A stretch of 32,000 nucleotides of DNA from Alphaproteobacteria bacterium. GTDB taxonomy: Bacteria > Pseudomonadota > Alphaproteobacteria > Micropepsales > Micropepsaceae. The position numbers were made by a program, and so were the translations under genes. Below the pieces are notes generated by a model. The model was not told the origin of the DNA. It did no database searches and saw only the letters and a program-made list of their open reading frames with translations. This document shows, piece by piece, positions 12,306-30,786 of the stretch. The stretch lies in the NCBI GenBank assembly GCA_947465395.1, contig CANIAL010000001.1:113672-145671 (forward strand). The letters are read 5' to 3'. Position 1 is the first letter of the stretch; every line of letters begins with the position of its first letter.

Positions 12306-12314
12306 TGCGGGCGG

Positions 12315-12343
12315 TTGTGAAGCGCATGCCCCCCTTGTATAAA
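12315..12343 (+). promoter_or_regulatory. Putative sigma70-type promoter for the PhyH-like gene
   Basis: TTGTGA (12315-12320), a 17-nt spacer, then TATAAA (12338-12343), about 30 nt upstream of the ATG at 12373. Confidence 0.3.
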
Positions 12344-12372
12344 TCGCGGGCAAGCCAAGCTGGGCATTTTTC

Positions 12373-13146: not shown

Positions 13147-13154
13147 TCTGGTGT

Positions 13155-14114
13155 CTAGACTGGTGTCGAGGTCGGCGGCAGCGCGGGTATCTCGCGCAGG
13201 ACCGCGATTTCTTTAGCCGTCAGAACGTCCTTGTAGCGGCCGATATTGCGCGCCGATTGCGTCCAGTCATAGCTGGATGCGATTGCAGGATTCAAATTCA
13301 GCAGCGCACAGACCCGGTCGCGTTCCTGCTGGTGGTTGAGAACGAAATCCTCGAAGCGCACCAGCAGGGCATCGCGGTGCTGCCATTCGTCCCATGCCAC
13401 CAGCTTGCCCAACGCCGTCTGGTAGCGGGCGAATTCTTCCGCGCCGCCCAGCAGTCTTTTGCGGTTGGCGGCGTAGACGTCGCAGGGGTCGCGGGTCACG
13501 CCGATCACCTTGCGGCCCGCGCCGAAATAGAGTGTCGAGGTGATGGGCGACCAGAAGCTTCCGGCCTGGTCAAAGGCCGGCCGCGCGCTGGTGGGTGCTG
13601 CATAGAAAAGCGACCGGATCAGCGTCTGTGCGTGGTGCAGGAATTCTTCTTCGGGCACCGGCACGGGTTTCTGCGCGGTGATGTTGCGCCCGCGCGGCTG
13701 GCGGCCCGCCATGAAGCGCAGCCAGTCCAGGGTGGACAGCTCCAGAAGATCCTGCAGCGGGAAAATGCCAAAGGTGCAGGCGGTGATGTCTTTGATGAAT
13801 TGCGCGATGGCGGCGTCATAGCCTGGAATGCGCCGCGAAAAGCCATAGCCCAGGCGCGGCGGGATTCGCAGCTTGGCGCTGTCGGCGCCCAGCCGGGCCG
13901 CCAGCTTCGTGAACCGGATCAGCGCATAGCTGGCGTCGTCGGGATGAATCTCGCTGGCCAGCGACCGGTGCAGGGACGAAAGCCCGCCGCGTTCCTGCAG
14001 CAGGCGGAATTCCTGCCCATCCAGCGCGTCATTCACATCGCCGCGCCCGCACAGATAATCCAGGATGGCGCCGCTGCCCGAATTGCCCGTGCCCAATATG
14101 ATGATGGGGTCCAT
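13155..14114 (-). CDS. Sulfotransferase-fold (P-loop) protein; last gene of the phosphonate operon
   Basis: N-terminal PAPS 5'-phosphosulfate-binding-like loop IIILGTGNSGSGA. Also a central 3'-phosphate-binding-like motif VIGVTRDPCDVYAANRK, and the C-terminal pattern VRFEDFVLNHQQE...LLNL...RNIGRYKDVLTAKE typical of bacterial sulfotransferase-family proteins. Its start lies 3 nt from the upstream Fe-ADH stop. Confidence 0.55.
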   Translation of the reverse strand: MDPIIILGTGNSGSGAILDYLCGRGDVNDALDGQEFRLLQERGGLSSLHRSLASEIHPDDASYALIRFTKLAARLGADSAKLRIPPRLGYGFSRRIPGYDAAIAQFIKDITACTFGIFPLQDLLELSTLDWLRFMAGRQPRGRNITAQKPVPVPEEEFLHHAQTLIRSLFYAAPTSARPAFDQAGSFWSPITSTLYFGAGRKVIGVTRDPCDVYAANRKRLLGGAEEFARYQTALGKLVAWDEWQHRDALLVRFEDFVLNHQQERDRVCALLNLNPAIASSYDWTQSARNIGRYKDVLTAKEIAVLREIPALPPTSTPV

Positions 14115-14117
14115 GGC

Positions 14118-15206
14118 TTAATCCAGCGAACGGGAAATCAGGTCGGCGATGCCATGGCCCATGCTGCCGGTGAAATTCTCGGCCCGGCCCTTGGTGTGCA
14201 TCTCGGCTTCCAGCGCCAGGATGGCATCGGGCGGCGCAAAGGCGCGGATTTTCTCCGCCAGCGACAGGGATTGCAGCAATTCCAGCACCCGCCCCAGCAA
14301 CAGGCGCTCATGCGGCATCGCCGACAGGGTGTCCAAATTCAGTTCCAGCAGCCGCGTAAGCGTAAAGCTGCAGGCCAGGCCATGCGGCACGCCAAAATGC
14401 AATGTGACGGGATAGGAAATGGAATGGGCGATGGCCGTGCGCGTCTGGCAGATGGCCAAGCCCGCCAGGCAACTGGCATATTGCATGGCGCCGCGCGCAT
14501 CCACATCGCCGGGCCGCGCCAGGGATGCGGGCAGGGCATCCACCGCCAGCGCCAGCGCCTGCATGGCATGGGCGGCGCTGATGGGCGAGCGGTTCCTGTT
14601 CCACAGCGATTCCAGGGCATGGGAAATCGTGTCCAGGCCCGTGAACAATGTCTGGTCCGCCGGCAGTGACAGCAAAAGCCTGGGGTCCAGCAAGGCCGTT
14701 TGCGGATAGACTGCATCGCCCGCCACCGAATATTTCCTGTTGTCCTGGTGATCCCAGACGGTGGCGAAGGGCGTGACTTCCGAACCCGTGCCGGCCGTGG
14801 TGGGAATGGCGATCACGGGCAGCGCGGCGTTCCAGGCGCCGCCGCCGCGCAGTACATCACCCAGCAGGCGTGCATCCAGCAGTGCCGCTGACAGGATCTT
14901 GGCGGCATCCAGCGCGCTGCCGCCGCCCAGCCCGACGATATGCGTGGGCATGGCAAGTTTGTGCTGCGCGGCCAGGCGCTCCATGTCCGCCAGTTCGGGA
15001 TTGGGCGTCACCGCGTCATGCACCGACACCTGGCAATGGGTCAGCGCCGCCTGCGTTTGCGCCGTCAGGCCGCGCTTGCTGGCGCCGGCGGTGGTGACAA
15101 CAAGAACCCGCGACGCAGCCGGCACCAGCGCGCCCAGCCGGTCCAACGCACCCGGACCCGCGATCACCTGCACGGGATTGAAATAGCGGGCGGTCATGTC
15201 CGCCAT
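14118..15206 (-). CDS. Iron-containing (group III) alcohol dehydrogenase; candidate phosphonoacetaldehyde reductase
   Basis: Fe-ADH motifs GLGGGSALDAAK and IAIPTTAGTGSE, with His-rich metal ligands (ISHALE, AIAHSISYPVTLHFGVPHG). The specific role is inferred only from its position directly downstream of ppd (3-nt gap). Confidence 0.8.
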   Translation of the reverse strand: MADMTARYFNPVQVIAGPGALDRLGALVPAASRVLVVTTAGASKRGLTAQTQAALTHCQVSVHDAVTPNPELADMERLAAQHKLAMPTHIVGLGGGSALDAAKILSAALLDARLLGDVLRGGGAWNAALPVIAIPTTAGTGSEVTPFATVWDHQDNRKYSVAGDAVYPQTALLDPRLLLSLPADQTLFTGLDTISHALESLWNRNRSPISAAHAMQALALAVDALPASLARPGDVDARGAMQYASCLAGLAICQTRTAIAHSISYPVTLHFGVPHGLACSFTLTRLLELNLDTLSAMPHERLLLGRVLELLQSLSLAEKIRAFAPPDAILALEAEMHTKGRAENFTGSMGHGIADLISRSLD

Positions 15207-15209
15207 GGT

Positions 15210-16331
15210 TCAGGCCCGCGCCAGTTTGCAGAAGGAAATCTTGTTCTCTTCGGGCGAGCTGGCCGGGCGGCCCAGATTGTCGCGCGCGGCGCGCGAAATT
15301 TTCACTTCCAGCAGCCGGGCGCCGGATTGCGCGGCGATCAGCGGCCACGCGCGCGCTATGTCCTCTGCGCTGGACGCAAGCTGGTATTGGGAATAGCCGC
15401 AGGCCAAAGCGATAGCGCGAAAATCCATGCCGCCCGCAACGGTGGGCTGGCCGCCAACCGATTCATGGGCGGCATTGTTGAGCAGGATATGGATCAGGTT
15501 GGGCCGGCGGCTGCCGATAATGGGCAGCGCACCCATGTGCATCAAGACCGAACCATCGCCGTCCAGGCAGACCACGCGCTTGCCAGGCTGACCCAGCGCC
15601 ACGCCCAGCGCGATGGAGGCGGTGTGTCCCATCCCGCCCACAGTCAGGAAGTCGCGCTGCGGCTCGCCCCGCGCCACGCGCAATTCATAAACCTCGCGCG
15701 AGGCTTTGCCGGTGGTGGAGATCACCAGATCGCCGGGATCGGCCAGCGCCAATAGCTGCGCCAGCGCGTCTTCCCGGCTGAGGGACGACAATTCCGCCTG
15801 CGCCTGGCGTAGCTTGTATTTGCCGAACGCGTCCTTGCGTACCAGCAGCGCCACCGGCGCGCCATCTTGCTGGATGCGGGCAAAGGCCTGGTCCAGCACG
15901 GCTTCGGCGTCGCTTTGCGCGTCTAGCACCCAATGGGGAATTTCCAGCAGGTCAAGCTGGCCCGGCGTGATGCGGCCCTGCTTGACGTGCTGCGGCTCGT
16001 CCTTGACGCCGGGCTCGCCCCGCCAGCCGATGATCAGCAGCATGGGAATTCGGTAAACCTCGCGGTCGGCCAGCGAGGTGAGGGGATTGACCGTGTTGCC
16101 CAGGCCGGAATTCTGCATATAGACGGCCGCGAACCCGCCCGACGCCAGATGATATCCCGCCGCCAGCGCGATGGCGTTGCCTTCATTGGCCGTGATCACA
16201 TGTTCCTGGGGCGCGGCATTGTCCTCGATATAGGCGCCCAGGCTGCTGAGCAGGGAATCGGGAACGCCCGCAAACAGGCCCACTCCGCGCGCCTTGAGGC
16301 CGGCAAAGAACTGGTCGGGCGCGATGCTCAT
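15210..16331 (-). CDS. ppd: Phosphonopyruvate decarboxylase (ThDP-dependent)
   Basis: [31 protein letters not shown]...[13 protein letters not shown] and the ThDP motif [19 protein letters not shown]...[16 protein letters not shown]. The ATG at 16331 overlaps the pepM stop (ATGA). The tracked ORF start at 16388 is an upstream extension. Confidence 0.9.
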
Positions 16332-17629
16332 TTGGTGCCGGGGATCAGGCCGAGGATTTCGCTGATGGGCATCATCTGCGCGTCGCATTCCGCCGAACGC
16401 TGGTGCGCCAGGATCGAGCGCGCGGTGGTCACCATGGCGGGATAGGCGCTGCGCAGAAGCTGGTTGGCATAGATCACGATGTTGACGCCATGCGCCTGCA
16501 ATGCTTCTTCGGTGACGCTGTTGTAGCTGGATGGCACCACCACAAGCGTCTTCTTGTTTTCCAGGGTGGCGTACCAGCGGCAGAATTCGAATATCTCGTC
16601 CGGAGTCTTCTGGCGGCTATGGATCATGATCCCGTCGGCCCCGGAATCCAGATAGGCTTTCGCCCGCGCCCTGGCGTCGTCCATGCCCCGCTGCAGGATC
16701 AGGCTTTCAATGCGGGCGATGATCATGAAGTCTGAGGTCGCCTGGGCGTTCTTTCCCGCACTGATCTTGGCGCAGAAATTCTCGATGCTGTCCTGAGTCT
16801 GGGGCACGTCCGTGCCGAACAGCGAGTTCTTTTTCAGGCCGGTCTTGTCCTCGATGATCGCGGCCGAAACGCCCAGCCTTTCCAGGGTGCGCACGGTGAA
16901 TACGAAATGCTCGCTTTGCCCGCCCGTGTCCGCGTCATAGATGATGGGCTTGGTGGTGACTTCCAGCACTTCGTTCAACGTGGTCATGCGGGCCGACACG
17001 TCCACCGCCTCGATGTCCGGTTTTCCCTTGGCGGTGGAATCCGTCAGGCTGCTGCCCCACATGCCGTCGAATTCGCGCCGCCCGCCGGGCGTGTCCACAT
17101 GCGTGTTCTCGATGATCAGGCCGCTGAGCGCATTGTGGATGTCCAGGAAGCGCAGCAGCGGGCGTGCGTTCAAAAGGCGGCGCAGCTGCTTTAGCCGCAG
17201 ATCCGGCGTGGTGCCCACTTCCTTCATGGCCGCATGCAGCGCGGTGGAGGATATGCCGGGCGTATAGGGCACTTCCACCAGCTTGCCGCCCCATTGGGCC
17301 AGGGCGACGATGGCGCGCGCGCGCGTCTGCTGCTGCACGCCAGTCTGCCAGTCATCGCCATGCACCAGGAAATCCGGCTTGAGGCTTTTCAGATTGGCCA
17401 CGTAATCCAGCGTGGTCTGCGGCACGACCCGGCTGACGGCTTTGAGATTTTCCATCACCTCGCGCCGGTGCTCATAGGTCATGAAGGGAAGGCGTTTGTA
17501 GCTGGCGATAGCCTGGTCGGTGAGCAGGCCCACTGTTACCTCGCCCAGTTCCGCGGCCTTGCGCAGGATGTTGAGATGCCCCGGATGCACCATGTCGGCG
17601 CTCATTGCTACATAGACTTGCTTGGGCAT
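16328..17629 (-). CDS. pepM: Bifunctional HxGH-type cytidylyltransferase / phosphoenolpyruvate mutase fusion (433 aa)
   Basis: Residues 1-140 are a cytidylyltransferase-like domain ([29 protein letters not shown]). Residues ~145-433 are the PEP mutase domain with the PepM-diagnostic EDK-X5-NS ([12 protein letters not shown], aa 260-269) and YDADTGG. The conserved start is the ATG at 17629; the tracked 533-aa ORF start at 17929 is an Arg/Ser/Ala-rich extension that runs into the divergent gene. Confidence 0.9.
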
Positions 17630-17750: not shown

Positions 17751-18434
17751 ATGGAAGCCATCGAAATCTGCGGCGCAGCCATGGCCCAAAGCCCCAAAGA
17801 GCCCAAACAGGCAAAGGCGGATGAAGCCCAGATCATGCTGGGCCTGCTGGACGCCGTCGAGCGCGATGGTCGCCAGTCCCAGCGCGGCATGGCCGCCGAA
17901 CTGGACATCGCCCTGGGCCTTGTGAACACCTATCTGGCCCGCTGCATTAAGAAGGGCTGGGTCAAGGCCCGCCAGGCGCCCGCGCGCCGGTATTTCTATT
18001 ATCTCACGCCCCGCGGCTTCACCGAGAAGTCCCAGCTCACCGCGCAATATCTGTCGTCATCCTTCGGTTTTTTCCGCCAGGCCAAGGGCGATTGCCAGGC
18101 CTTGTTCCAGGCGGCCCAGGCGCGCGGGCTGAAGCGGCTGGTGCTGGCGGGGAAATCCGACCTTGCTGAGATCGCAGTGATCTGCGCGGTGGATTGCGGC
18201 GTGGAAATCGTGGGCCTGGTGGACGCGCACACGCGCGACAAGTTCTTCCTCAAATTGCCGCTGGCCGCCAGCCTGGACAGGATCGCCGTTCCATTCGATG
18301 CGGTGGTGGTGACCGATCTCAGCACGCCGCGCCAGACTTGCGAAGAGATGATCGCGCGCATCGGCGCAGAGCGCGTGCTGATGCCGGAACTACTGCGCAT
18401 CCGGTTCCAGGCCGCACAGGAGAAGGCGGCATGA
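17751..18434 (+). CDS. EPS-associated MarR-type winged-helix regulator with a C-terminal Rossmann-like extension
   Basis: wHTH region [70 protein letters not shown] resembles the EPS-locus MarR subfamily. An extra ~120 aa has a beta-alpha-beta pattern ([32 protein letters not shown]...FDAVVVTD). Start is uncertain (ATG at 17751, 17781 or 17835). The stop overlaps the ABC gene start (ATGA). Confidence 0.65.
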
Positions 18435-20221
18435 GCAGCCGCAACGCTACCTACCGGGCCTTCCTGGCCGACCTGCGCCGCGCCAATGGCTGGCGGCTGC
18501 CGCTGCTGATCGGCTTGATGAGCGTGACGGCGTTCACGGACGGATTGTCGGTCACCTTGCTGTTGCCGCTTCTCACCCGCGTCGGCGTGGCCGGTTCGGC
18601 CAATGGCGGCGCCACCAGGATCATCAACCAAGCGCTTTCCTATATTACCCCCGCCGGCAGCGGCGTCGGCGCCATCCTGGTGATCATCTTGGTGGTGGCG
18701 TTGCTGCAGTTGGGCCTGAACATGCTGCAAGGCTGGTGGAGCTCCCATCTGATCCATCGCTACAGCCTAGGCTGGCAGATGCGTCTGTTTCGCGCCTTTC
18801 TGGGCGCCGACTGGCTTTTCCTGACCGGGCGCAAGGCGGGCGAACTCACCAGCGCAGCCGTGATCGAGACGGGGCGGCTGGGCGGCTCCTTCTATTATTT
18901 CACCCTGCTGGCCAGCACCATCGTCGCCTGCATCATCTATCTGTTGCTGGCCATGCTGATCACCTGGCGCGCGACCTTGCTGCTGATCGGGCTGGGCTTT
19001 GTCATGGCGCTTTCCATTTCGCGCCTGCACCGCATCAGCCGCGCCGCAGGCCAGCAGGCCGGTCCCCTCAATGCCGAGTTGCAGGTGCTGGTGGCCGAAA
19101 GCCTGTCGGGCGCCAAGATGATCAAGGCCGCGGTGGGCGAGCAGGTCATGGTGGACAGGGTGGAGAAAGTCTCCAACGCGCTCAACCGGGTGGGCTTCAC
19201 CCGCCTTTTCCTGCCCAATGTGGTGCGCGGCGTTTTCGAATTCATTTCCTTTACCGGGCTGGCGGTGTTTTTCGCCTATGGCATGATCCCGCTGCATGTG
19301 GCGCCGGCCGATGTGCTGGTGGTGCTGGCGTTGTTCCTGCGCCTGCTGCCGAAATTCACCAATGCCCAGACCCTGGTGCACGAGCTGAATGTGCATGTGC
19401 CGTCGATCCAGGTGGTCCAGGATCTCCTGGGCGATGCGCTGCAAGAGGCCGAGCGCAGCGGCGGCGTGGATAGCGGCTTCACCGTTCCCTTGCCCACGCG
19501 CCTAGACGTGGAAGGCCTGCACGCGGCCTATAAGGATCGCGCGGTTCTCAATGGCCTGACCCTCAGCCTGAATGTGCCCGGCATGGTGGGCATTGTGGGC
19601 GGCTCGGGCGCAGGCAAATCCACGCTGGTGCATGCATTGCTGGGATTGGTGCGGCCCAGCGGCGGCGCCATCAAGCTTGGCACGCATGACATGGGGGATG
19701 TGGCGCTGTCTGCCTGGCGACGCCGGATCGGCTATGTGCCGCAGGAGACGATGTTCTTCCATGCCAGCGTGGCCGAGAATTTGGCGCTGTCCATGCCATC
19801 GGCATCGCGCGCGGAAATCATCGCCGCGGCAAAGCTGGCCAATGCGCATGATTTCATCATGGCGCTGCCGCAGGATTACGACACGCCCATCGGCGACCAG
19901 GGCGTGCTGCTCTCGGGCGGGCAGCGCCAACGCCTGGGCATTGCCCGCGCATTGCTGGCAAAGCCGGTGTTGCTGCTGCTGGACGAACCCACCAGCGCCT
20001 TGGACCCGAAATCGGAAAATGAAATCCTTTCCACCCTGGTCGAACTGCGCCGGACGATGGGGATCGTGATCGTGGCGCACCGCCTGACCACGGTGCAGGC
20101 GGCGGACCAGATCTATGTGCTGGACAATGGCCGCGTGGTGGAATCGGGAAGCTGGGCCGATTTAATCGCCAAGCGCGACCGCTTCCATTCCCTGGCCAAG
20201 CTCCAGCAGATTGTGGCCTGA
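18431..20221 (+). CDS. Fused TMD-NBD ABC exporter (MsbA/PglK-like half-transporter)
   Basis: Six-TM N-terminal domain, then Walker [10 protein letters not shown], signature LSGGQRQR, Walker [13 protein letters not shown] and an H-loop (VIVAHR). AGGAG lies upstream of the ATG at 18431. The tracked ORF start at 18194 lies inside the regulator gene. Confidence 0.9.
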
Positions 20222-20223
20222 CC

Positions 20224-21108
20224 ATGAGCGCGATCACCAAGGGCATTGTTCTGGCGGGCGGCGCGGGGTCGCGGCTGTGGCCGCTGACCAGCGTTGCTAG
20301 CAAGCAGTTGCTGCCGGTCTATGACAAGCCCATGGTCTATTACCCGCTGACCACCCTGATGCTGGCCGGCATCCGCGACATATTGCTGATCTCCACGCCG
20401 ACCGAATTGTTGCGCTTCCAGTCGCTGCTGGGCGACGGCAGCCAATGGGGCGTCGCCATCCGCTATGCCGCCCAGCCCGAGCCGCGCGGCATCGCCCAGG
20501 CCTTCCTGATCGGCGAGGAGTTTATCGCGGGCCAGGGCTGCGCGCTGGTGCTGGGCGACAATATCTATTACGGCGCCGGGCTGGGTGAGCGCGTGCAGCG
20601 CGCCGCCGCGCAAAAGGGCGGCGCCACCGTCTTTTGTCACCAGGTGCCCAATCCCGGCGAGTTCGGGGTGGTGGAGATCGATGCGGACGGCCGCGCGCTT
20701 TCCATCGAGGAAAAGCCCAAGGCCCCCCGCTCCAACTGGATCGTGACGGGTCTTTATTTCTATGACGATGCGATCATCGATGTCGCCCGCAACCTCAAGC
20801 CATCGGCGCGGGGCGAGCTTGAAATCACCGACGTCAACCGCGCCTATCTGGCGCGCGGGTCCTTGCATGCCGAACAGCTGGGCCGGGGCTATGCTTGGTT
20901 CGATGCGGGCACGCAAAAGGCGCTGCTGCAGGCGGGCGAATTCATCCACACCATCGAGGAGCGCCAGGGCCTGAAGGTGGGCTGCCCCGAGGAAATCGCG
21001 TATCGCATGAATTATATCGACGCCGCCGCGCTGACCCGGCTTGCCAACGCGGCCCCGGGCAGCGATTACGGCATCTATCTTCGCAATATCCTTCAGCATT
21101 CGCGTTAA
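20224..21108 (+). CDS. rfbA: Glucose-1-phosphate thymidylyltransferase
   Basis: [52 protein letters not shown], the canonical RmlA N-terminus, and a length of 294 aa. Confidence 0.95.
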
Positions 21109-21118
21109 AAGGCCCGCA

Positions 21119-22366
21119 ATGACCAAGAACGACCTGAATTCCGTCCGCAACTGCCGTGTCTGCGATGCGCCCATCGAGGCCTTCATGTCGTTCGGGCAGC
21201 AGCCCATCGCCAATGGCTTTCTTACCTCGGCCCAGGTCGCGGACGAATATTTCTATGAAATGAAACCCGCCTTCTGCGCGCGCTGCTGCATGTTCCAGAT
21301 CATGGACCAGCCCGCGGCCGAGCGCATGTTCCATGGCGAATACGCATTTTTCTCCAGCACGTCGCGCTACATGCAGGCGCATTTCGCCAAATTCGCCAAG
21401 GAGGCGATGGAGACGGTTCTGGCCGGACGCGCCGATCCCTTTGTGGTGGAGCTGGGCAGCAATGACGGCATCATGCTGGGCAATTTCAAGGAAAAGGGCT
21501 TCCGCCATTTGGGCGTGGAGCCGTCCAGCAATGTCGCCGATGTGGCGCGGGCCAAGGGCATCAACAGCATCAGCGAATTTTTCAGCCCCGCATTGGCAGA
21601 GCGCATCGTGGCCCAGCACGGCCATGCCGATTTCATGTCGGCGGCCAATGTCATGTGCCACATTCCCGACATCAACGGCATCGCAGCGGGCGTGAAGACG
21701 CTGTTGAAGCCCGACGGCGTCTTCATGTTTGAGGACCCCTATCTGGGCGCGATGGTGGAAAAGACCTCCTACGACCAGATCTATGACGAGCATGTCTTCA
21801 TTTTCTCGGCCTTGTCGGTGCAGAATGTTTTTGCCCGGCATGGGCTTGAGCTGGTGGACGTGGCGCCGCAGATCACCCATGGCGGCTCCATGCGCTACAC
21901 CATCTCGCCCAAGGGTGCGCGTCCCGTCTCCGACTGCGTGGCAAAACAGTTGGCCTGGGAGCGCGGGCAGGGCCTGGACAATCCGGCCACCTGTGACCGC
22001 TTCCGCGCGAATTGCGAGGCCTCGCGCGACCAGTTGCTGACGCTCCTGGAAAAGCTGCGCCAGGAGGGCAAGCGCGTGGTGGGCTATGGCGCCACGTCCA
22101 AGAGCACCACCGTCACCAATTATTGCGGCATCGGCCCGCAGCATGTGGAGTTCATTTCCGACACCACGCCCATCAAGCAGGGCAAGCTGTCGCCGGGCGC
22201 GCATATTCCCGTGAAGCCTTACGCCGCCTTCGCGGACAATTACCCCGATTACGCCCTGCTGTTCGCCTGGAACCATGCGGCGGAAATCCGCGAAAAGGAA
22301 ACCAGCTTCACCGCGGCGGGCGGCAAATGGATCGTCTATGTGCCGAAAGTGGGTATTGAATCGTGA
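21119..22366 (+). CDS. NDP-hexose C-methyltransferase (TylC3/NovU/KijD1-like, SAM-dependent)
   Basis: About 415 aa. N-terminal Zn-ribbon-like CRVCDAPIEAFMSFGQQPIANGF plus a CxxC (FCARCC), a class I SAM fold (VVELGSNDG) and a C-terminal Rossmann-like domain (VVGYGATSKSTT). This architecture is typical of sugar C-methyltransferases. Start is the ATG at 21119. Confidence 0.72.
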   Translation: MTKNDLNSVRNCRVCDAPIEAFMSFGQQPIANGFLTSAQVADEYFYEMKPAFCARCCMFQIMDQPAAERMFHGEYAFFSSTSRYMQAHFAKFAKEAMETVLAGRADPFVVELGSNDGIMLGNFKEKGFRHLGVEPSSNVADVARAKGINSISEFFSPALAERIVAQHGHADFMSAANVMCHIPDINGIAAGVKTLLKPDGVFMFEDPYLGAMVEKTSYDQIYDEHVFIFSALSVQNVFARHGLELVDVAPQITHGGSMRYTISPKGARPVSDCVAKQLAWERGQGLDNPATCDRFRANCEASRDQLLTLLEKLRQEGKRVVGYGATSKSTTVTNYCGIGPQHVEFISDTTPIKQGKLSPGAHIPVKPYAAFADNYPDYALLFAWNHAAEIREKETSFTAAGGKWIVYVPKVGIES

Positions 22367-23463
22367 TCCCCTGGGCCTCGCCACAGGCGCAGTTCCGCGC
22401 CCATGAAACCGCCATTCGCCAGGCGGTGGACCGCGTCCTGACGGGCAGCGCCTATGTGATGGGCCCGGACGTGATGAATTTCGAACGCGCTTTCGCCGCC
22501 TATCTGGGCGCGGCGCATGTGGCGGGCGTGGCCAGCGGCACGGATGCGCTGATCCTGGCCTTGCGCGCCTTCGGCATCGGTCCCGGCGATGAAGTCATCA
22601 CGGTGGCCCATACGGCGGTCGCCACCGTGTCGGCCGTGCTGGCAGCAGGCGCCACGCCGGTGCTGGTGGATGTCGAACCGGATTTCTACACCATTGACCC
22701 GGCGGCCATCGAAGCGGCGGTGACGCCCCGCACCAAGGCCATCATCGCGGTGCATATCTATGGCCAGATGGCCGACATGGATGCGATCGTTCCGCTGGCG
22801 CGCCGGCTGAAGTTGACGCTGATCGAGGATTGCGCCCAGGCCGCCGGCGCCAGCCATCGCGGGCGCCGTGCGGGCAGTATAGGCGACGCCGCCTGTTACA
22901 GTTTCTATCCCACCAAGAATCTGGGCGGCATCGGTGACGGCGGCGCGGTTGCCTCCAACGATGGCGATTTCATCGCCCGCCTGCGCCGTTTGGCGCAATA
23001 TGGCTGGGACGAAAACCGCAAGACACAGGGCATCGGCGTCAATTCGCGGCTGGACCCGCTGCAGGCGGCGATCCTGTCAGCCAAGCTGCCGCATCTGGAT
23101 GCCGACAATGCCCGCCGCGCCGCCATCGCCGCGCGCTACAGCCAGGGTCTGGACAATCTGGGCCTGACCGTGCCGATGGTGCGTGCCGATTCCCGGCATG
23201 TCTTTCATCTGTATGTCATCGCCGCGGATAACCGCGTTGCGCTGATGGCGGCGCTGGCCAAGGCGGGCGTGGGTTCGGCCTTGCATTATTATCCCGCCAT
23301 TGACCGACAGGACGGCTATGCCCAGCGCGTCACCGTGCTGGGCGGCGGCTTGCCCGTGACCACGCGCCTGTCGGAACGCATCGTCTCGTTGCCCATGTAT
23401 CCCGAGCTGAGTGATGCGGATGTGGATGCCGTGATCGCGGCCGTCCGCGCCAGCCTGGCCTGA
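22363..23463 (+). CDS. DegT/DnrJ/EryC1/StrS-family NDP-sugar aminotransferase
   Basis: ASGTDALILALRAFGIGPGDEVI and SFYPTKNLGGIGDGGAV (PLP lysine). The GTG start overlaps the preceding stop (GTGA). Confidence 0.9.
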   Translation: MIPWASPQAQFRAHETAIRQAVDRVLTGSAYVMGPDVMNFERAFAAYLGAAHVAGVASGTDALILALRAFGIGPGDEVITVAHTAVATVSAVLAAGATPVLVDVEPDFYTIDPAAIEAAVTPRTKAIIAVHIYGQMADMDAIVPLARRLKLTLIEDCAQAAGASHRGRRAGSIGDAACYSFYPTKNLGGIGDGGAVASNDGDFIARLRRLAQYGWDENRKTQGIGVNSRLDPLQAAILSAKLPHLDADNARRAAIAARYSQGLDNLGLTVPMVRADSRHVFHLYVIAADNRVALMAALAKAGVGSALHYYPAIDRQDGYAQRVTVLGGGLPVTTRLSERIVSLPMYPELSDADVDAVIAAVRASLA

Positions 23464-23473
23464 GGCGCCCGCC

Positions 23474-24646
23474 ATGTCCCCCCGCCTCACCATCGTGATG
23501 CCGCTCCGGGGGCGCAATCTTTTCACCCTGCGGTTTTTGTATTACGCGAATCAGTTGCAGATGCCCTATCGTTTCCTGATCGCGGACGGGCTGGTGCATC
23601 CGAAGCTGGCCGAGGTGCTGGAAAATTCCCGGCGGCACTTCTCGGACCTGGACATCGAATATGTGCGCTATCCGGACGACAGGGAATTTGCGGATTTCTT
23701 TAACAAGATGGCCGACGCGTTGGGACGTGTGACAACGCCTTACGCGATGATTGGCGACAATGACGACTTCATCATGCCAGCCGGCGTAGAAAGGGCCATC
23801 GACTTCCTGGAATCCAATCCGGATTTCGTGGGTTACAGCGGCCGAATTTTGGGATTCTCGGCCTATTCCGGCTTGAGTGATCCGCAGCGCGGCCTGCGCG
23901 GGCGGCTGAACCGGCTTTACATGTGCTATCCGCAGCGGGACGCCAGTCAGGCCAGCGCGAGCGAGAGATTTCAGAACAGCATGTCGGGTCTTTGGCCATA
24001 TTACGCCATCATGCGGACGGAGGCACTGGCGACGGTGTGCCGGGAAATTGCCGAATTGTCATTTTCGGACCTGCAGGTCCATGAGGCATTTCACGTCCTG
24101 CGCGTGCTGACGATGGGGCGGGTGCGGCATGACGGCGGCGTCGCTACCCTCAACCGGCAATATGGAACCTCGTTGAATGCGTCCTTCAAGAAGGACTGGA
24201 TTCACCATCTGGTGCGCAGCCGCCTGACCCAGGACATTGCCGCCCTGGTTTCGCGCGTGGGCGATGCCGCGATTGTCGCGGGCGCCGATCCTGCCACCAT
24301 TCGTGAAGAACTCTATGCGATCATGGACGGAAAATTCCGCCAGATGGTCAAGGCCGCTTATGGTTCAATGCAGGAGGTCAAGCATGTCGCCCGCCGCCGC
24401 ATGCCCCGCCTCCTGCAATGGTACAAGAACCGTCCCCGGCTTGCCGTAAGGGCTGAGGAAAGGGCCCTGGCCGCCGCCATGGTGCATGACGGCGCATCGC
24501 CTTCCTATGTTGAGATATTTCACCAGGAAATCGCGGCCTTGCGCGCGATATTGTCGGGCACGGAGTTTGCGGACTTCATCCGCCCCTTTGAAGCGGTCTT
24601 TGCGGCCGGCGATTCGTCGCACCGCAAAGCCAGCAACCTGGAATAG
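23474..24646 (+). CDS. Uncharacterised protein with an N-terminal GT-A (GT2-like) glycosyltransferase-type domain
   Basis: LTIVMPLRGRN...FLIADG... and a DxD-like IGDNDDF, as in GT-A folds. I cannot place the C-terminal ~200 aa. G+C is lower than in the neighbours. Confidence 0.45.
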   Translation: MSPRLTIVMPLRGRNLFTLRFLYYANQLQMPYRFLIADGLVHPKLAEVLENSRRHFSDLDIEYVRYPDDREFADFFNKMADALGRVTTPYAMIGDNDDFIMPAGVERAIDFLESNPDFVGYSGRILGFSAYSGLSDPQRGLRGRLNRLYMCYPQRDASQASASERFQNSMSGLWPYYAIMRTEALATVCREIAELSFSDLQVHEAFHVLRVLTMGRVRHDGGVATLNRQYGTSLNASFKKDWIHHLVRSRLTQDIAALVSRVGDAAIVAGADPATIREELYAIMDGKFRQMVKAAYGSMQEVKHVARRRMPRLLQWYKNRPRLAVRAEERALAAAMVHDGASPSYVEIFHQEIAALRAILSGTEFADFIRPFEAVFAAGDSSHRKASNLE

Positions 24647-24649
24647 GCA

Positions 24650-25216
24650 ATGCAGATTCACAAAACCAAGCTGGACGGGTGCCTGGTCATCGAGCCGAAG
24701 CGGTTTGGCGATGCCCGCGGCTTCTTCCTGGAAAGCTATCACCAGGCGCGCTACCGCGAGGCCGGCATCCCGGACATTTTCGTTCAGGACAATCACTCGC
24801 GGTCCGCCAAAGGTGTTTTACGCGGCATGCATTTCACGGTGCGCCGGCCACAGGCCCAGATCGTGACGGTGATGCGCGGGCGCATATTCGATGTGGGCGT
24901 GGATATGCGCCCCGGTTCGCCCACATTCGGGCAGTGGTTTGGGGCGGAGCTGGGCGATGACGGCCCTTGCCAGATCTACATGGCGCCAGGCTTCGCGCAC
25001 GGCTTTTGTGTGCTCAGCGATTTTGCGGATCTTCATTACAAGTGCAGCGAATTCTACGACCATGGGGACGAGAGCGGGCTGTTGTGGAATGATCCGCAAG
25101 TGGCGATCCAGTGGCCGCTGGCGGCACCTGTGGTCAACCTGCGCGACGCTGGTTTCTTGTGTCTGCAAGATCTGACATCTGACAAGCTGCCCCACACCGG
25201 AGGCGGCTCAAAATGA
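24650..25216 (+). CDS. rfbC: dTDP-4-dehydrorhamnose 3,5-epimerase family
   Basis: VIEPKRFGDARGFFLESY...FVQDNHSRSAKGVLRGMHF...APGFAHGF, the canonical RmlC cupin motifs. Confidence 0.9.
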   Translation: MQIHKTKLDGCLVIEPKRFGDARGFFLESYHQARYREAGIPDIFVQDNHSRSAKGVLRGMHFTVRRPQAQIVTVMRGRIFDVGVDMRPGSPTFGQWFGAELGDDGPCQIYMAPGFAHGFCVLSDFADLHYKCSEFYDHGDESGLLWNDPQVAIQWPLAAPVVNLRDAGFLCLQDLTSDKLPHTGGGSK

Positions 25217-25250
25217 ATGCGGTTTTAATGTTTTCCAATCGGAGTTTCCA

Positions 25251-25871
25251 ATGACAGACAAAAATCCTGTTCGCCTGAATATCGGCTGTGGCGGGCGTCC
25301 GCTGCTGGATTATGTCAATGTGGACATGGACAGCCTGGACGATCTGCGCCGCCGCTATCCAGCCCAGACTTTTTCAGACGACATCATCCTGCGCAACCAC
25401 GACATCTTTAATCTGCCCTATGCCGATGGCACTGTAGACGAGGTGCGCGCGGACGGATTGCTGGAGCATCTTTCCTTTATCGACGAACCTCGGTTTTTTC
25501 ACGAGGTGAGGCGGGTCCTGAAGTCCGGTGGCAGCTTCGTGTTCAGCGTCCCGGATTTCGAGCAGGTCTGCAAGAACTGGTTGGCCGCCAAGGATGATTG
25601 GAAGGATTTCTACCGCATGGACGATGAAGCCATCGCCAAGCAGCACTGGTTCGGGACTTATACCTACAAAACAGACAATCGCTGGGGTTATATCGTGGCG
25701 ACGATCTATGGCAGCCAGCACGGCGAAGGGCAGTATCATCGCAACTGCTATTCGGAAGGCAAGATTCGCGCGATCATGGAACGGCTTGGCTTTGACGTTG
25801 CGTCCCTGAACAAAACGCTGTGGAAGGGCGACCGGGATCCCATGCTGGACACCGTGGCCGTCAAGCGCTGA
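25251..25871 (+). CDS. Class I SAM-dependent methyltransferase (small, Methyltransf_11-like)
   Basis: Motif I LNIGCGGRPLLDYVNVD, then DEVRADGLLEHL and LKSGGSFVFSVPD. GGAG lies upstream of the ATG. G+C is noticeably lower. Confidence 0.8.
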   Translation: MTDKNPVRLNIGCGGRPLLDYVNVDMDSLDDLRRRYPAQTFSDDIILRNHDIFNLPYADGTVDEVRADGLLEHLSFIDEPRFFHEVRRVLKSGGSFVFSVPDFEQVCKNWLAAKDDWKDFYRMDDEAIAKQHWFGTYTYKTDNRWGYIVATIYGSQHGEGQYHRNCYSEGKIRAIMERLGFDVASLNKTLWKGDRDPMLDTVAVKR

Positions 25872-25881
25872 GCGAGGATAA

Positions 25882-26853
25882 ATGGGCGGCGCCATCTTCC
25901 AGAACTGGTACGAAGGCAAGACGGTGGTCGTGACCGGTGGTTATGGCTATCTTGGCACCGGGCTTTGCGAGCGATTGCGCGGCGCAGGTGCGCGCCTGCG
26001 CCGTGCCACGCGCGGCCGGCCAAATATAGAAAACGATCGCGAAGCACGGGTCGGTGACATTAGCGATCCCGCTTTCTGCGCCCGGCTGGTGGATGGTGCG
26101 GATGCGGTGTTTCACTTCGGCGCCCAGACCAGTGTCCCGGATTCCCACGCCTGCCCGGGCGATGATCTGCGCGCCAATGCGCAAGCGACCCTGACGCTGC
26201 TGGAAGCCTGCCGCCATGGAGGCGACATGGCATTAGTTTATGCCGGTACGGCGACCGCTGTCGGGCTGCCCTCGCAAATGCCGGTCGGCACTGGTACGCC
26301 AGACCAGCCGGTAACGGTTTACGATGCGACCAAGCTGGCGTCAGAAAACCTGGTCGGGGTTTACCGCGCCAATGGCTGGGTCAAGGGCGTCTGCCTGCGG
26401 ATCGCCAATGTCTATGGCCCTGGACCAGCTAAATCGGCATCCGATCGGGGCGTCACCAACCGGATCATTGCCCGGGCGCTGGCGGGTCAGGACCTTGTCT
26501 ATTATGGCGATGGCAATTTGCTGCGCGACTATGTCTATGTTGACGATCTGCTGGACGCCTTCTTCCGGGTCGGCACGGCGGCCGGGAGTGCGGCGGAACG
26601 TTATTATGTCGTGGCCGGCGGGAAGGGCTACAGCTTGCGCGAGGTGTTCGAATTGATCGCCGACACGGTGGCGGGTTTGGGGCGCGCCCGCGTGCAAGTC
26701 AGTTCGGCGCCCTGGCCCGCTACCGCGCACGCAATCGACAGGCGCAACTTCGTGGCGGATATTTCGCCTCTGCGCGCCCTTTGCGATTGGCAGCCGACGA
26801 CGCCGCTTGCCGAGGGCGTTCGCAAGACGGCGCATTTCCTGGTGGAGGGCTGA
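25882..26853 (+). CDS. NAD-dependent epimerase/dehydratase-family SDR (candidate NDP-sugar ketoreductase or epimerase)
   Basis: VVVTGGYGYLGTGL (GxxGxxG) and the catalytic YDATK (YxxxK). Confidence 0.85.
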   Translation: MGGAIFQNWYEGKTVVVTGGYGYLGTGLCERLRGAGARLRRATRGRPNIENDREARVGDISDPAFCARLVDGADAVFHFGAQTSVPDSHACPGDDLRANAQATLTLLEACRHGGDMALVYAGTATAVGLPSQMPVGTGTPDQPVTVYDATKLASENLVGVYRANGWVKGVCLRIANVYGPGPAKSASDRGVTNRIIARALAGQDLVYYGDGNLLRDYVYVDDLLDAFFRVGTAAGSAAERYYVVAGGKGYSLREVFELIADTVAGLGRARVQVSSAPWPATAHAIDRRNFVADISPLRALCDWQPTTPLAEGVRKTAHFLVEG

Positions 26854-27270
26854 ATGTCGCTGCATTCCATTCGCGATGTGTGCCAGATCGCCCTGCCGCT
26901 TCATTCGCGCGGCGATGGCGAACTGATGGTGATGGAATCCGGGAAACAGGTGCCGTTTGCGGTGGCGCGGGTTTTCACGGTCCGCGCCGATGCCGGCGCC
27001 GTGCGCGGCCAGCATGCCCACAAACGCTGCACGCAATTCCTGGTCTGCGTGCAGGGCGAAATCGCCGTGGAATGCGATGACGGCGCCGCGAAAACCCAAT
27101 ATCTGCTGGATAGCGGCGGCAAGGGGCTTTTGATCCCGGCCTCGATCTGGGGCATGGAGACGTATCGCACGGATGGCGCGGTGCTGATGGTGCTGTGCGA
27201 CCGCCTCTATGAAGATGACGACTATCTGCGCGATTATGCGCAATTCCTGGAATGGCGAAACACACCATGA
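26854..27270 (+). CDS. FdtA/WxcM-like cupin, NDP-6-deoxy-hexulose 3,4-ketoisomerase family
   Basis: 138-aa cupin with FAVARVFTV...VRGQHAHKRCTQFLVCVQGEI and LLIPASIWG, matching the FdtA/QdtA-type pattern. The ATG directly abuts the upstream TGA. Confidence 0.78.
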   Translation: MSLHSIRDVCQIALPLHSRGDGELMVMESGKQVPFAVARVFTVRADAGAVRGQHAHKRCTQFLVCVQGEIAVECDDGAAKTQYLLDSGGKGLLIPASIWGMETYRTDGAVLMVLCDRLYEDDDYLRDYAQFLEWRNTP

Positions 27271-29308: not shown

Positions 29309-29351
29309 CGTTTTTGCTTTCGCCGCGCGGAATATTTTATCAGAGGCGGAT

Positions 29352-30715: not shown

Positions 30716-30786
30716 GCGCCCGCGGGGCCAGATTTGGCTCGTACTCCAGCGGCTTAGCGCCTATAAGGACCGGGCTGCAAAGGGCG

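What the first reader, a model, noticed from the sequence alone, without database searches (positions are those of the whole stretch)
13155..14114. Sulfotransferase-fold enzyme as the terminal gene of a phosphonate operon
The 319-aa protein shows the bipartite PAPS-binding pattern of sulfotransferases (GTGNSGSGA near the N-terminus; TRDPCDVYAANRK centrally). It begins 3 nt after the Fe-ADH stop, so it is almost certainly co-translated with the phosphonate enzymes.

I know of no characterised phosphonate pathway that uses a sulfotransferase. All of the following are speculative:
- O-sulfation of the HEP hydroxyl, giving a sulfo-phosphonate.
- Sulfation of the acceptor sugar.
- A repurposed P-loop fold that transfers the phosphonyl group itself from the CMP conjugate. 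No LicD-type phosphotransferase is seen in the window.
Basis: inference. Interest (0 to 1): 0.65.

Follow-up and report, generated by a model that had tools for sequence, protein, structure and literature searches.

The report
Sulfotransferase-fold enzyme ending a phosphonate operon
The last gene of a 2-hydroxyethylphosphonate (HEP) operon encodes a sulfotransferase-fold enzyme that has lost a key contact for the usual sulfate donor, so it may attach the phosphonate to a surface sugar polymer, a step whose enzyme is unknown for such HEP clusters.

Summary
A 319-aa ORF (13155-14114, minus strand) starts 3 nt after the Fe-ADH stop. It ends the operon PntC-Ppm / Ppd / Fe-ADH. Its AlphaFold model (pLDDT 90) matches only sulfotransferases.

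The family is rare, about 22 protein clusters in its own clade among 5.8 billion. Its members sit next to three different donor-making cassettes:
- PAPS synthesis and recycling, in the closest relatives (54-61% identity). One of these lies at the same chromosomal locus as the window.
- The CMP-HEP phosphonate cassette, as here.
- A Campylobacter-type CDP-phosphoramidate-3'-phosphate cassette, in 32 marine loci.

Of 319 positions, only two separate phosphonate-linked from PAPS-linked members. One is the canonical serine that binds the 3'-phosphate of PAPS. It is Ser wherever the expected donor carries a 3'-phosphate, and Ala, Glu or Gln in every phosphonate-linked member. No LicD-type transferase is in the window.

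Best reading (about 0.5): a phosphonyl transferase that uses CMP-HEP. Main rival (about 0.3): a true sulfotransferase, perhaps acting on the HEP hydroxyl. Nothing here is biochemically tested.

The parts
13155..14114 (-). Sulfotransferase-fold protein (319 aa) and terminal gene of the operon. Proposed CMP-HEP:acceptor 2-hydroxyethylphosphonyl transferase.
   Evidence: ORF. Fold. Weak PF13469 hit. Ala216 at the 3'-PB serine position. Context-correlated signature at positions 216 and 290.
14118..15206 (-). Phosphonate-type Fe-dependent alcohol dehydrogenase (PhpC-like), reducing phosphonoacetaldehyde to HEP.
   Evidence: PF00465 and PF25137. Best NCBIfam hit TIGR03405 Phn_Fe-ADH, 342 bits, below its 423.7 cut-off. 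Its stop lies 3 nt before the next ATG.
15210..16331 (-). Phosphonopyruvate decarboxylase (Ppd). The probable start is the ATG at 16331, overlapping the Ppm stop as ATGA. The mechanical ORF runs to 16388.
   Evidence: TIGR03297, 450 bits, above cut-off. ATGA overlap read.
16328..17629 (-). PntC-type cytidylyltransferase fused to PEP mutase (433 aa from the ATG at 17629). It makes phosphonopyruvate and, by analogy with Fom1, CMP-HEP. The mechanical ORF extends to a GTG at 17929.
   Evidence: PF01467 plus PF13714. TIGR02320, 395 bits. Homologues of 437-448 aa, 67-75% identical over 431 residues. Start read. Fom1 precedent from PMC6697681.
12373..13146 (+). PhyH-family 2OG/Fe(II) dioxygenase, convergent with the sulfotransferase-like gene (8 nt between the stop codons). 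A possible HEP hydroxylase.
   Evidence: PF05721. Best NCBIfam hit is methylphosphonate hydroxylase, 80 bits, far below its 500-bit cut-off. It recurs in phosphonate-linked loci L014 and L016 and on the P0002 contig.
17751..18434 (+). MarR-family EPS-associated regulator, divergent from the phosphonate operon.
   Evidence: PF13412. TIGR04176, 55 bits, below cut-off. Conserved at the same place in syntenic L067 (60% identity).
18428..31668 (+). Glycan biosynthesis and export genes that presumably supply the acceptor: ABC exporter, RmlA-type nucleotidyltransferase, sugar C-methyltransferase, DegT aminotransferase, isomerase, epimerases/dehydratase, GT2.
   Evidence: Pfam. The same gene set flanks homologues in L001, L014 and L067.

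Best explanation
The protein is a sulfotransferase-fold group transferase whose donor is not PAPS. Its proposed donor is the product of its own operon, CMP-2-hydroxyethylphosphonate (or a hydroxylated derivative).

Proposed pathway:
- PEP mutase and Ppd make phosphonoacetaldehyde.
- The Fe-ADH reduces it to HEP.
- The PntC domain fused to Ppm joins HEP to CMP.
- The terminal enzyme binds CMP-HEP where sulfotransferases bind PAPS.
- A general base, probably the family-invariant Glu35, activates an acceptor hydroxyl. The acceptor is most likely a sugar of the glycan built by the neighbouring genes, in the cytoplasm before ABC export.
- The hydroxyl attacks the phosphonyl phosphorus in line and CMP leaves. 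This is the same chemistry as sulfuryl transfer from PAPS with PAP leaving.

Shown here: the fold, the operon structure, the family's three donor-cassette contexts, and the context-correlated substitution of the 3'-phosphate-binding serine.

Inferred: the donor identity, the acceptor, the catalytic base and the reaction itself.
For: 1. Fold. The model matches only sulfotransferases.

2. Conserved cassette. The four-gene unit PntC-Ppm / Ppd / Fe-ADH / this gene recurs, tightly packed, in the window, L001, L012, L014, L015, L016 and the P0006 contig.

3. Cassette swap. L067 is the same chromosomal locus in a relative (gyrA 80%, coaD 83%, PPIase 80%, DegT 85%, RmlA 80%, ABC 70% identity). There the phosphonate genes are replaced by APS kinase, sulfate adenylyltransferase, pyruvate kinase, TauE and CysQ. 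The homologue is again the terminal, overlapping gene. Three more close relatives (L066, L068, L069) have such PAPS genes.

4. Phosphoramidate relatives. In 32 marine loci a distant clade lies 13-127 nt from a Cj1418-like gene. It sits inside a Cj1415-1418-type cassette. [quoted passage not shown]

5. Specificity positions. Of 319 positions only 216 and 290 separate phosphonate-linked from PAPS-linked members.
- Position 216 aligns with SULT1A1 Ser138, the 3'-phosphate-binding serine.
- It is Ser in all 4 PAPS-linked members, all 31 phosphoramidate-linked members, all 6 D-clade members and the stand-alone P0008. It is Gln, Ala or Glu in all 8 phosphonate-linked members.
- With those two columns removed, the window protein groups inside the PAPS-linked set (84% NJ bootstrap). 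The residue therefore changed together with context on separate branches.

6. Prediction test. A further clade with Glu at 216 (P0123) turned out to lie in a locus that begins with a phosphonate-type Fe-ADH (TIGR03405, 278 bits; 42-46% identical to the other Fe-ADHs). That locus also holds a cytidylyltransferase and shows no PAPS genes.

7. No other candidate transferase. No APS kinase, ATP sulfurylase, CysQ, LicD, TagF-type or EptA-type gene was found in the scanned window ORFs. For L001 the recorded Pfam hits list no LicD, and tblastn found no PAPS-cassette gene or LicD-like match there or in the other phosphonate-linked loci. The only unknown protein shared by the window and L001 (window 23474-24646) also occurs in PAPS-type L067 and L066, so it is not phosphonate-specific.
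Against: 1. The window protein is 54-61% identical to relatives that are almost certainly PAPS-dependent, and it branches among them. At that identity the reaction is usually conserved.

2. The 3'-PB arginine (Arg208) is invariant, including in phosphonate-linked members.

3. Every phosphonate context found is HEP type (Fe-ADH) and never AEP type. AEP clusters are far commoner (56% against 8.5% of ppm neighbourhoods, PMC8942020). That bias is expected if the HEP hydroxyl is the acceptor.

4. In the Glu216 clade (L078) a LicD-like phosphotransferase sits directly upstream, and LicD genes lie near P0018 in L007. A conventional phosphonyl transferase can therefore coexist with this family.

5. 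The D clade has Ser216 and Asn290 with no donor cassette. This undermines reading position 290 as a cytosine-versus-adenine determinant.

6. The marine phosphonate clade has Thr or Ser at position 215, which might partly replace the lost serine.

7. No coordinates of the model were available, so the residue mapping rests on sequence alignments. The tree is neighbour-joining only.

8. No biochemical data exist for any family member.
Confidence: 0.5

Rival explanations
1. It is a genuine O-sulfotransferase using PAPS, or APS given the lost 3'-phosphate contact. Its acceptor is the 2-hydroxyl of HEP, either free, as CMP-HEP, or already attached to the glycan. The product would be a 2-sulfooxyethylphosphonate decoration or a sulfate-activated intermediate.
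For: - Sulfotransferase fold.
- 54-61% identity to PAPS-cassette-linked homologues, and nested among them.
- Arg208 and the putative base Glu35 are conserved.
- All phosphonate contexts are HEP type, which offers a hydroxyl, in at least two deep lineages.
- A LicD-like transferase next to the homologue in L078 could install the phosphonate and leave this enzyme a tailoring role.
- CurM/OLS sulfotransferases, which sulfate a hydroxyl to activate it, are among the fold matches.
Against: - The 3'-PB serine is lost in every phosphonate-linked member (Ala, Glu or Gln) but kept in every PAPS-linked one. Nothing about a change of acceptor predicts that.
- The two discriminating positions lie in donor-binding motifs, not obviously in acceptor regions.
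- There are no PAPS genes in the window, although the syntenic relative carries a dedicated PAPS and CysQ operon.
- This reading leaves CMP-HEP without any consumer in the window, L001 or L014.
- O-sulfotransferases that use APS are, to my knowledge, not established.
Confidence: 0.22
2. It is a PAPS-dependent sulfotransferase that sulfates a sugar of the same glycan, as its PAPS-linked orthologues presumably do. On this reading it merely shares an operon with the phosphonate genes because both decorate the same polymer.
For: - Close orthology and the same glycan gene set as L067 and the P0008 contig.
- P0008 is a stand-alone member with no donor cassette nearby, so cassette linkage is not obligatory.
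Against: - The gene is translationally coupled to Fe-ADH in at least seven loci across three subclades.
- Loss of Ser216 is correlated with that context.
- No PAPS supply genes are present here.
- No other CMP-HEP transferase was found.
Confidence: 0.08
3. It uses CMP-HEP as donor, but the acceptor is the hydroxyl of another HEP unit. That would build HEP-HEP phosphonate ester dimers or a short poly(hydroxyethylphosphonate) chain, analogous to TagF polymerising glycerol phosphate from CDP-glycerol.
For: It explains both the loss of the 3'-phosphate contact and the exclusive link to HEP rather than AEP. It is also compatible with a LicD-like enzyme adding the first unit in L078.
Against: This is pure inference and I know of no such polymer. 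The window and the marine loci lack a LicD-type primer enzyme.
Confidence: 0.07
4. It is a non-transferase or regulatory nucleotide-binding protein, or a CMP-HEP hydrolase or kinase on a P-loop-like scaffold.
For: The canonical P-loop Lys/Arg is missing throughout the family. The Pfam score is below threshold.
Against: - There is no Walker A lysine, so a kinase or NTPase is unlikely.
- Invariant Glu35, Arg24, Gln183, Arg208 and Ser287 across all contexts argue for a conserved catalytic site.
- The fold matches are to sulfotransferases, not kinases.
Confidence: 0.05

Closest known systems
PAPS-dependent sulfotransferases of the Sulfotransfer_3 / TPST type (PF13469; e.g. human TPST1/2, CurM and OLS ST domains, mycobacterial Stf9)
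   Same: Same fold. A strand-loop-helix P-loop at the N-terminus. The RDPxD 3'-PB motif with the conserved Arg. An acidic residue about 24 residues after the P-loop, like the TPST catalytic Glu (from memory). Close relatives sit in PAPS-making operons.
   Different: Asn replaces the catalytic P-loop Lys/Arg in nearly all members (Cys, Tyr or Gln in a few). In this protein Ala replaces the 3'-phosphate-binding Ser. The Pfam score is below the gathering threshold. The genomic partner is a CMP-phosphonate pathway, not PAPS synthesis.
PntC / LicD-type phosphonyl tailoring pathway (Rice et al. 2019, PMC6697681)
   Same: A cytidylyltransferase fused to Ppm activates the phosphonate as a CMP conjugate for transfer to cell-surface glycans. 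The gene neighbourhood is a glycan cluster.
   Different: The characterised PntC enzymes preferentially activate AEP, and their gene neighbourhoods encode LicD-like phosphotransferases as the presumed transferases. Here the phosphonate is HEP, no LicD domain is present, and a sulfotransferase-fold protein occupies the terminal position.
Campylobacter jejuni O-methyl phosphoramidate pathway (Cj1415-Cj1418 donor synthesis; Cj1421/Cj1422 transferases)
   Same: The donor is a cytidine nucleotide carrying a phosphorus-centred group. In Campylobacter it is 3'-phosphorylated and so resembles PAPS (my comparison). Distant members of this family lie inside Cj1415-1418-like cassettes in 32 marine loci.
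   Different: The window has no such cassette. 
Fom1 / fosfomycin pathway
   Same: A cytidylyltransferase-Ppm fusion makes CMP-HEP.
   Different: In fosfomycin biosynthesis CMP-HEP is, as the title of the cited Fom1 paper puts it, a transient modification. To my knowledge it is later removed by hydrolysis and is not a group-transfer donor, and that cluster has no sulfotransferase-fold gene.
TagF-type CDP-glycerol glycerophosphotransferases
   Same: They work in a like manner: a hydroxyl attacks the phosphorus of a cytidine-nucleotide-activated group and CMP leaves.
   Different: The fold is unrelated and no homology was detected.

Membership tests
PAPS-dependent sulfotransferases (Sulfotransfer_3, PF13469; SULT/TPST fold) | Sulfotransferase alpha/beta fold | tested here: met
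   AF2 model with pLDDT 90.1. All 50 listed PDB matches are sulfotransferases or close sulfotransferase-family proteins; best E 7e-6, probability 1.0, TM 0.42-0.51.
PAPS-dependent sulfotransferases (Sulfotransfer_3, PF13469; SULT/TPST fold) | Score above the Pfam gathering threshold | tested here: not met
   20.5 bits against a cut-off of 27, covering residues 201-274 only. Many homologues do carry a recorded PF13469 hit.
PAPS-dependent sulfotransferases (Sulfotransfer_3, PF13469; SULT/TPST fold) | 5'-PSB loop with catalytic Lys/Arg (PKSGTT / GxxRSGTT) | tested here: not met
   The loop is GTGNSGSGA, with Asn11 at the Lys/Arg position. This is by motif inspection; the profile alignments did not cover this region. 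The substitution holds in nearly all family members (a few have Cys, Tyr or Gln), including the PAPS-linked ones.
PAPS-dependent sulfotransferases (Sulfotransfer_3, PF13469; SULT/TPST fold) | 3'-PB arginine | tested here: met
   Arg208 aligns with SULT1A1 Arg130 and is invariant in the family.
PAPS-dependent sulfotransferases (Sulfotransfer_3, PF13469; SULT/TPST fold) | 3'-PB serine eight residues after the arginine | tested here: not met
   Ala216 aligns with SULT1A1 Ser138. It is Ser in PAPS-linked and phosphoramidate-linked relatives, and Ala, Glu or Gln in all phosphonate-linked ones.
PAPS-dependent sulfotransferases (Sulfotransfer_3, PF13469; SULT/TPST fold) | Sulfuryl transfer from PAPS | not testable with these tools
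   This needs an enzyme assay. There are no PAPS synthesis or CysQ genes in the window, although they are present at the syntenic locus L067.
LicD-family phosphotransferases (PF04991) of PntC pathways | LicD domain | tested here: not met
   No PF04991 hit for this protein or any scanned window ORF. tblastn with a LicD-like query found nothing in the window.
LicD-family phosphotransferases (PF04991) of PntC pathways | Genomic coupling to a phosphonate cytidylyltransferase (PntC) | tested here: met
   It shares an operon with the PntC-Ppm fusion here and in at least six other loci.
P-loop NTPases / nucleotide kinases | Walker A motif GxxxxGK[ST] | tested here: not met
   GTGNSGSGA has no lysine. 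No kinase appears among the listed fold matches.
Phosphoramidate (MeOPN-type) transfer system | Adjacent Cj1415-Cj1418-like donor cassette | tested here: not met
   Absent from the window. Present next to the distant P0023 clade in 32 loci.

The most novel reading that the evidence does not exclude
This small sulfotransferase-fold family may be a set of interchangeable installers of anionic glycan decorations. The donor would be set by whichever cassette sits beside the gene: PAPS, CDP-phosphoramidate-3'-phosphate or CMP-HEP. It would be tuned by very few residues, with position 216 reading the 3'-phosphate. On this reading the window enzyme would be the first phosphonyl transferase with this fold, and the missing enzyme that attaches HEP to glycans. 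Its marine cousins, including ones in SAR11 (a Candidatus Pelagibacter protein is among them), would be the first sulfotransferase-fold phosphoramidate transferases. Related bacteria would swap sulfate for phosphonate at the same chromosomal locus by exchanging the cassette.
Probability: 0.4. Interest if true: 0.85.

Novelty: new variant of a known kind. Interest (0 to 1): 0.72.

Why it matters
How phosphonates other than AEP are attached to bacterial surface glycans is unknown. HEP is one of the most abundant phosphonates in marine high-molecular-weight dissolved organic phosphorus (PMC8931226).

This gene is a concrete, testable candidate for the missing HEP transferase. Purified enzyme can be assayed with CMP-HEP against PAPS.

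If the reading is right, it shows a sulfotransferase scaffold moved to phosphorus-centred group transfer by minimal changes in the nucleotide pocket. It also links three surface modifications (sulfate, phosphoramidate, phosphonate) as evolutionary alternatives installed by one enzyme family. And it gives a sequence signature for predicting the donor.

If the rival is right, the product would be a sulfated phosphonate decoration. I know of no report of one, and no paper linking a sulfotransferase to phosphonate biosynthesis turned up.

Tried and rejected
- The genome-contig scan with the family profile gave only 2 loci, so no named, cultured organism with this gene was found.
- A profile search from the phosphoramidate-linked clade returned no protein with a Campylobacter name.
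- I first read position 290 (Asn in cytidine-donor contexts, Ser/Phe in PAPS contexts) as a base-specificity determinant. I downgraded this because the D clade has Ser216 and Asn290 with no donor cassette, and I had no model coordinates to check contacts.
- P0018 (L007; Gln216, Asn290) was examined as a second test of the signature. The contig ends 663 nt upstream with no Fe-ADH. Only LicD fragments and other glycan genes lie nearby, so the result is uninformative.
- The promoter and terminator scan of 12300-18500 showed nothing above shuffled expectation and no convincing internal terminator.
- Literature searches for a sulfotransferase-like phosphonyl or phosphoramidyl transferase found nothing. 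Two key papers were not held: Taylor & Raushel 2018 (PMC5938747) and Yu et al. 2014 (PMC3993330).
- A kinase/NTPase reading was rejected because there is no Walker A lysine.
The Arg130/Ser138 numbering fits the alignment and agrees with the independent HMMER alignments to PDB sulfotransferases.
Full report
**Observation.** The ORF at 13155-14114 on the minus strand encodes 319 aa with GTGNSGSGA at residues 8-16 and TRDPCDVYAANRK at 207-219. Its ATG (14112-14114) follows the TAA of the upstream Fe-ADH gene (14118-14120) by exactly 3 nt. The operon is compact throughout. There are 3 nt between Ppd and Fe-ADH. The PntC-Ppm stop and the probable Ppd start form an ATGA overlap at 16328-16331. The upstream genes are:
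- a cytidylyltransferase-PEP mutase fusion (PF01467 plus PF13714; TIGR02320, 395 bits);
- phosphonopyruvate decarboxylase (TIGR03297, 450 bits);
- a phosphonate-type Fe-ADH (best hit TIGR03405, 342 bits, below its 423.7 cut-off).

So the operon should make HEP and, by analogy with Fom1 (PMC6697681), CMP-HEP. The true start of the fusion is most likely the ATG at 17629 (433 aa), as in homologues of 437-448 aa.

**Fold.** Pfam gives only a sub-threshold Sulfotransfer_3 hit (E 6e-4, 20.5 bits against 27) and NCBIfam gives nothing. An AlphaFold2 model built on 23 homologues is confident (pLDDT 90.1, pTM 0.86). All 50 listed PDB matches are sulfotransferases or close sulfotransferase-family proteins (TPST1/2, OLS and CurM ST domains, Stf9, SULTs; best E 7e-6). 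The fold claim is therefore confirmed. The PAPS-binding motifs are degenerate, though:
- Asn11 sits where the catalytic Lys/Arg of the 5'-PSB loop belongs. This is by motif inspection and holds in nearly all family members.
That pair binds the 3'-phosphate of PAPS (established knowledge of the 3'-PB motif).

**Rarity and contexts.** The family is very small. There are 23 protein clusters at E <= 1e-3 among 5.8 billion for the window protein. A profile search added only two more to its own clade. Using encoding-contig look-ups and 57 metagenomic loci, I classified members by neighbourhood with tblastn and profile scans.

- *Class A, PAPS-linked.* P0003, P0005, P0007 and P0010 are 54-61% identical to the window protein. 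In L067 and L069 the homologue sits in an operon with adenylyl-sulfate kinase, sulfate adenylyltransferase, pyruvate kinase, a TauE-family permease and a CysQ-type PAP phosphatase. L066 and L068 carry partial or variant forms (L066 has a pyruvate kinase-APS kinase fusion, CysQ and TauE; the short L068 contig shows a pyruvate kinase-like gene, CysQ and a second sulfotransferase). The L067 and L066 proteins were checked against NCBIfam. These are almost certainly true PAPS-dependent sulfotransferases.
- *Class B, phosphonate-linked.* The window, L001 (Porticoccaceae MAG), L012, L014, L015, L016 and the P0006 contig all carry PntC-Ppm / Ppd / Fe-ADH / homologue. P0002 (72% identical) has the same convergent PhyH gene.
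- *Class C, phosphoramidate-linked.* The P0023 clade is 21-28% identical to the window protein. It is marine and includes a protein from Candidatus Pelagibacter. It lies 13-127 nt from a PPDK-like gene in 32 loci, co-directional in 22 and divergent in 10. The surrounding cassette also encodes an APS-kinase-like protein, a class-I amidotransferase whose best NCBIfam hit is gamma-glutamyl-CDP-amidate hydrolase, and a nucleotidyltransferase. That is the Cj1415-Cj1418 set. In Campylobacter it makes CDP-phosphoramidate 3'-phosphate, the likely phosphoramidate donor (PMC11800397).
- *Class D, no cassette.* This clade shows no donor cassette. It sits among carbamoyltransferase, NeuB and glycosyltransferase genes.

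**Cassette swap.** L067 is the same chromosomal locus as the window in a related organism. Identities are gyrA 80%, coaD 83%, PPIase 80%, DegT 85%, RmlA 80%, ABC exporter 70% and MarR 60%. Between the MarR-like gene and the DegT gene, L067 has the PAPS operon ending in the sulfotransferase. The window has the phosphonate operon ending in its homologue, which is only 59% identical. In both, the transferase is the terminal, tightly coupled gene. The simplest reading is that the transferase consumes what the upstream genes make.

**Specificity positions.** I scanned all 319 positions for residues that separate phosphonate-linked from PAPS-linked members. Only two do so without exception, 216 and 290.
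- Position 216 is the 3'-PB serine. It is Ser in 4/4 PAPS-linked members, 31/31 phosphoramidate-linked members, 6/6 D-clade members and the stand-alone P0008. It is Gln (5), Ala (2) or Glu (1) in 8/8 phosphonate-linked members, and Gln or Glu in 8 more that cluster with them.
- Thus the serine is kept wherever the expected donor carries a 3'-phosphate, and lost wherever it is CMP-HEP, which has none.
- No APS-kinase-like gene is present in any phosphonate-linked locus.
- A neighbour-joining bootstrap with these two columns removed puts the window protein and P0002 together with PAPS-linked L067 and L068 (84%). It never recovers the PAPS-linked set as a clade without them. So the substitutions track context on separate branches, with three different replacement residues. 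This argues against simple shared ancestry.
- Position 290 is Ser/Phe only in PAPS-linked members and Asn elsewhere. It lies near the segment that by extrapolated alignment corresponds to the adenine-contacting T-S-F motif of SULTs (inference and memory). The D clade has Asn290 without any cytidine-donor cassette, so I leave its meaning open.

**A prediction test.** A further clade (P0022, P0119-P0123) has Glu at 216 and Asn at 290. The signature predicts a donor without a 3'-phosphate. The one look-up left (P0123) gave this gene order: Fe-ADH, methyltransferase, HAD phosphatase, NTP_transf_3 cytidylyltransferase, LicD-like protein, homologue, then glycosyltransferases.
- The truncated first gene is a phosphonate-type Fe-ADH (TIGR03405, 278 bits). 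It is 42-46% identical to the Fe-ADHs of the other phosphonate loci.
- The prediction held. The locus is again an HEP context with a cytidylyltransferase and shows no PAPS genes.
- The same locus carries a LicD-like phosphotransferase, however. This weakens the argument that the family must be the phosphonyl transferase.

**Weighing the readings.** For a phosphonyl transferase that uses CMP-HEP, I count these points:
- the three-cassette pattern of the family;
- the cassette swap at one locus;
- the context-correlated loss of the 3'-phosphate contact;
- the absence of PAPS genes;
- the absence of any other candidate CMP-HEP consumer in the window or in L001. The only unknown protein shared by these loci also occurs in the PAPS-type loci.

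Against it, and for a true sulfotransferase, perhaps acting on the HEP hydroxyl:
- 54-61% identity to, and nesting within, PAPS-linked enzymes;
- retention of Arg208;
- exclusive association with HEP rather than the much commoner AEP (56% against 8.5% of ppm neighbourhoods; PMC8942020);
- LicD-like genes near two outlying members.

The HEP-only link can be rationalised under the transferase reading. LicD enzymes handle cationic head groups such as choline and AEP, and neutral HEP might need another scaffold. That is inference only. I put the CMP-HEP transferase reading at about 0.5, sulfation of HEP at about 0.22, sulfation of a sugar at about 0.08, a HEP-on-HEP oligomerising variant at about 0.07, and other roles at about 0.05.

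**Mechanism proposed.** The steps below are inferred.
- CMP-HEP binds with its 5'-phosphate and phosphonate on the GNSGSGA loop.
- Its ribose sits near Arg208 and position 216.
- An invariant acidic residue (Glu35, spaced from the P-loop as the TPST catalytic Glu is) deprotonates the acceptor hydroxyl.
- In-line attack on phosphorus releases CMP and leaves a phosphonate monoester on the acceptor.
- I saw no obvious signal peptide or membrane segment by inspection, and the strand-loop-helix of the nucleotide site starts at residue 4 in the model. No predictor was run. The reaction would then be cytoplasmic, before export by the adjacent ABC transporter.

**Novelty.** Full-text searches found no report of a sulfotransferase-fold phosphonyl or phosphoramidyl transferase, and none of sulfotransferase genes in HEP clusters. 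The two surveys of phosphonate neighbourhoods do not mention one. The finding is a new variant of a known kind. It is a known fold and a known pathway logic (nucleotide-activated phosphonate), with a new and untested pairing. It is directly testable with purified protein.

Noticed in passing
window 17731-17745: A perfect palindrome, GTTCATA-T-TATGAAC, lies in the AT-richer divergent region between the phosphonate operon start (17629) and the MarR-like regulator start (17751). It is a plausible operator for that regulator.
   Followed up: no
window 13142-13165: The convergent PhyH gene and the sulfotransferase-like gene end 8 nt apart. The junction is a near-duplicated 12-mer (TCTAGTCTGGTG / TCTAGACTGGTG) whose CTAG cores supply the stop codon of each gene. 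No terminator hairpin lies between them. On the P0002 contig the two genes overlap by 4 nt.
   Followed up: partly
window 12373-13146 (+): The best NCBIfam hit of this PhyH-family dioxygenase is methylphosphonate hydroxylase (weak, 80 bits). It recurs in phosphonate-linked loci (L014, L016, the P0002 contig), and L001 has a faint 2OG-oxygenase-like ORF. It may hydroxylate HEP, so the transferred group could be a dihydroxyethylphosphonate.
   Followed up: partly
L067 5444-10004; L069 1256-5882; L066 10975-13827: The dedicated PAPS operons next to close homologues also carry a full pyruvate kinase and a TauE-family permease. L066 has a pyruvate kinase-APS kinase fusion. In place of ATP sulfurylase it has a small CTP_transf_like nucleotidyltransferase, 30% identical to the window PntC domain. 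The role of pyruvate kinase, and the nucleotide made in L066, are unexplained.
   Followed up: partly
L004-L006, L023-L063 (marine metagenome loci); P0029: A complete Campylobacter-type phosphoramidate donor cassette (Cj1415-1418-like) is widespread in marine bacterial glycan clusters. One member protein is named as coming from Candidatus Pelagibacter. The cassette is always paired with a sulfotransferase-fold gene. I found no report of phosphoramidate-decorated glycans in these organisms.
   Followed up: partly
L001 3140-4378: In the marine phosphonate loci a DAO-family FAD oxidoreductase gene overlaps the start of PntC-Ppm and looks like part of the cassette. The window has no counterpart.
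   Followed up: no
L002 5843-8004; L018 7775-9979; L020 1683-3876: D-clade homologues are always preceded by a protein of about 475 aa (TIGR04396 'surface carbohydrate biosynthesis protein') and a protein of about 240 aa with no family hit. A TIGR04396 protein also occurs in the phosphoramidate locus L004. The function is unknown.
   Followed up: partly
L078 996-5871: The Glu216 clade locus combines a phosphonate-type Fe-ADH with two SAM methyltransferases, a SerB-like HAD phosphatase, a LicC-type cytidylyltransferase, a LicD-like protein and the sulfotransferase-fold gene. This suggests a methylated or doubly modified phosphonate head group.
   Followed up: partly
window 1009-2964 (+): A TPR-repeat protein with a GT41 (O-GlcNAc-transferase-like) domain lies next to uvrA, outside the glycan cluster proper.
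   Followed up: no
window 16328-17929 and 15210-16388: The mechanical ORFs overstate both genes. PntC-Ppm most likely starts at 17629, not at the GTG at 17929. Ppd most likely starts at 16331 (ATGA overlap), not at 16388.
   Followed up: yes
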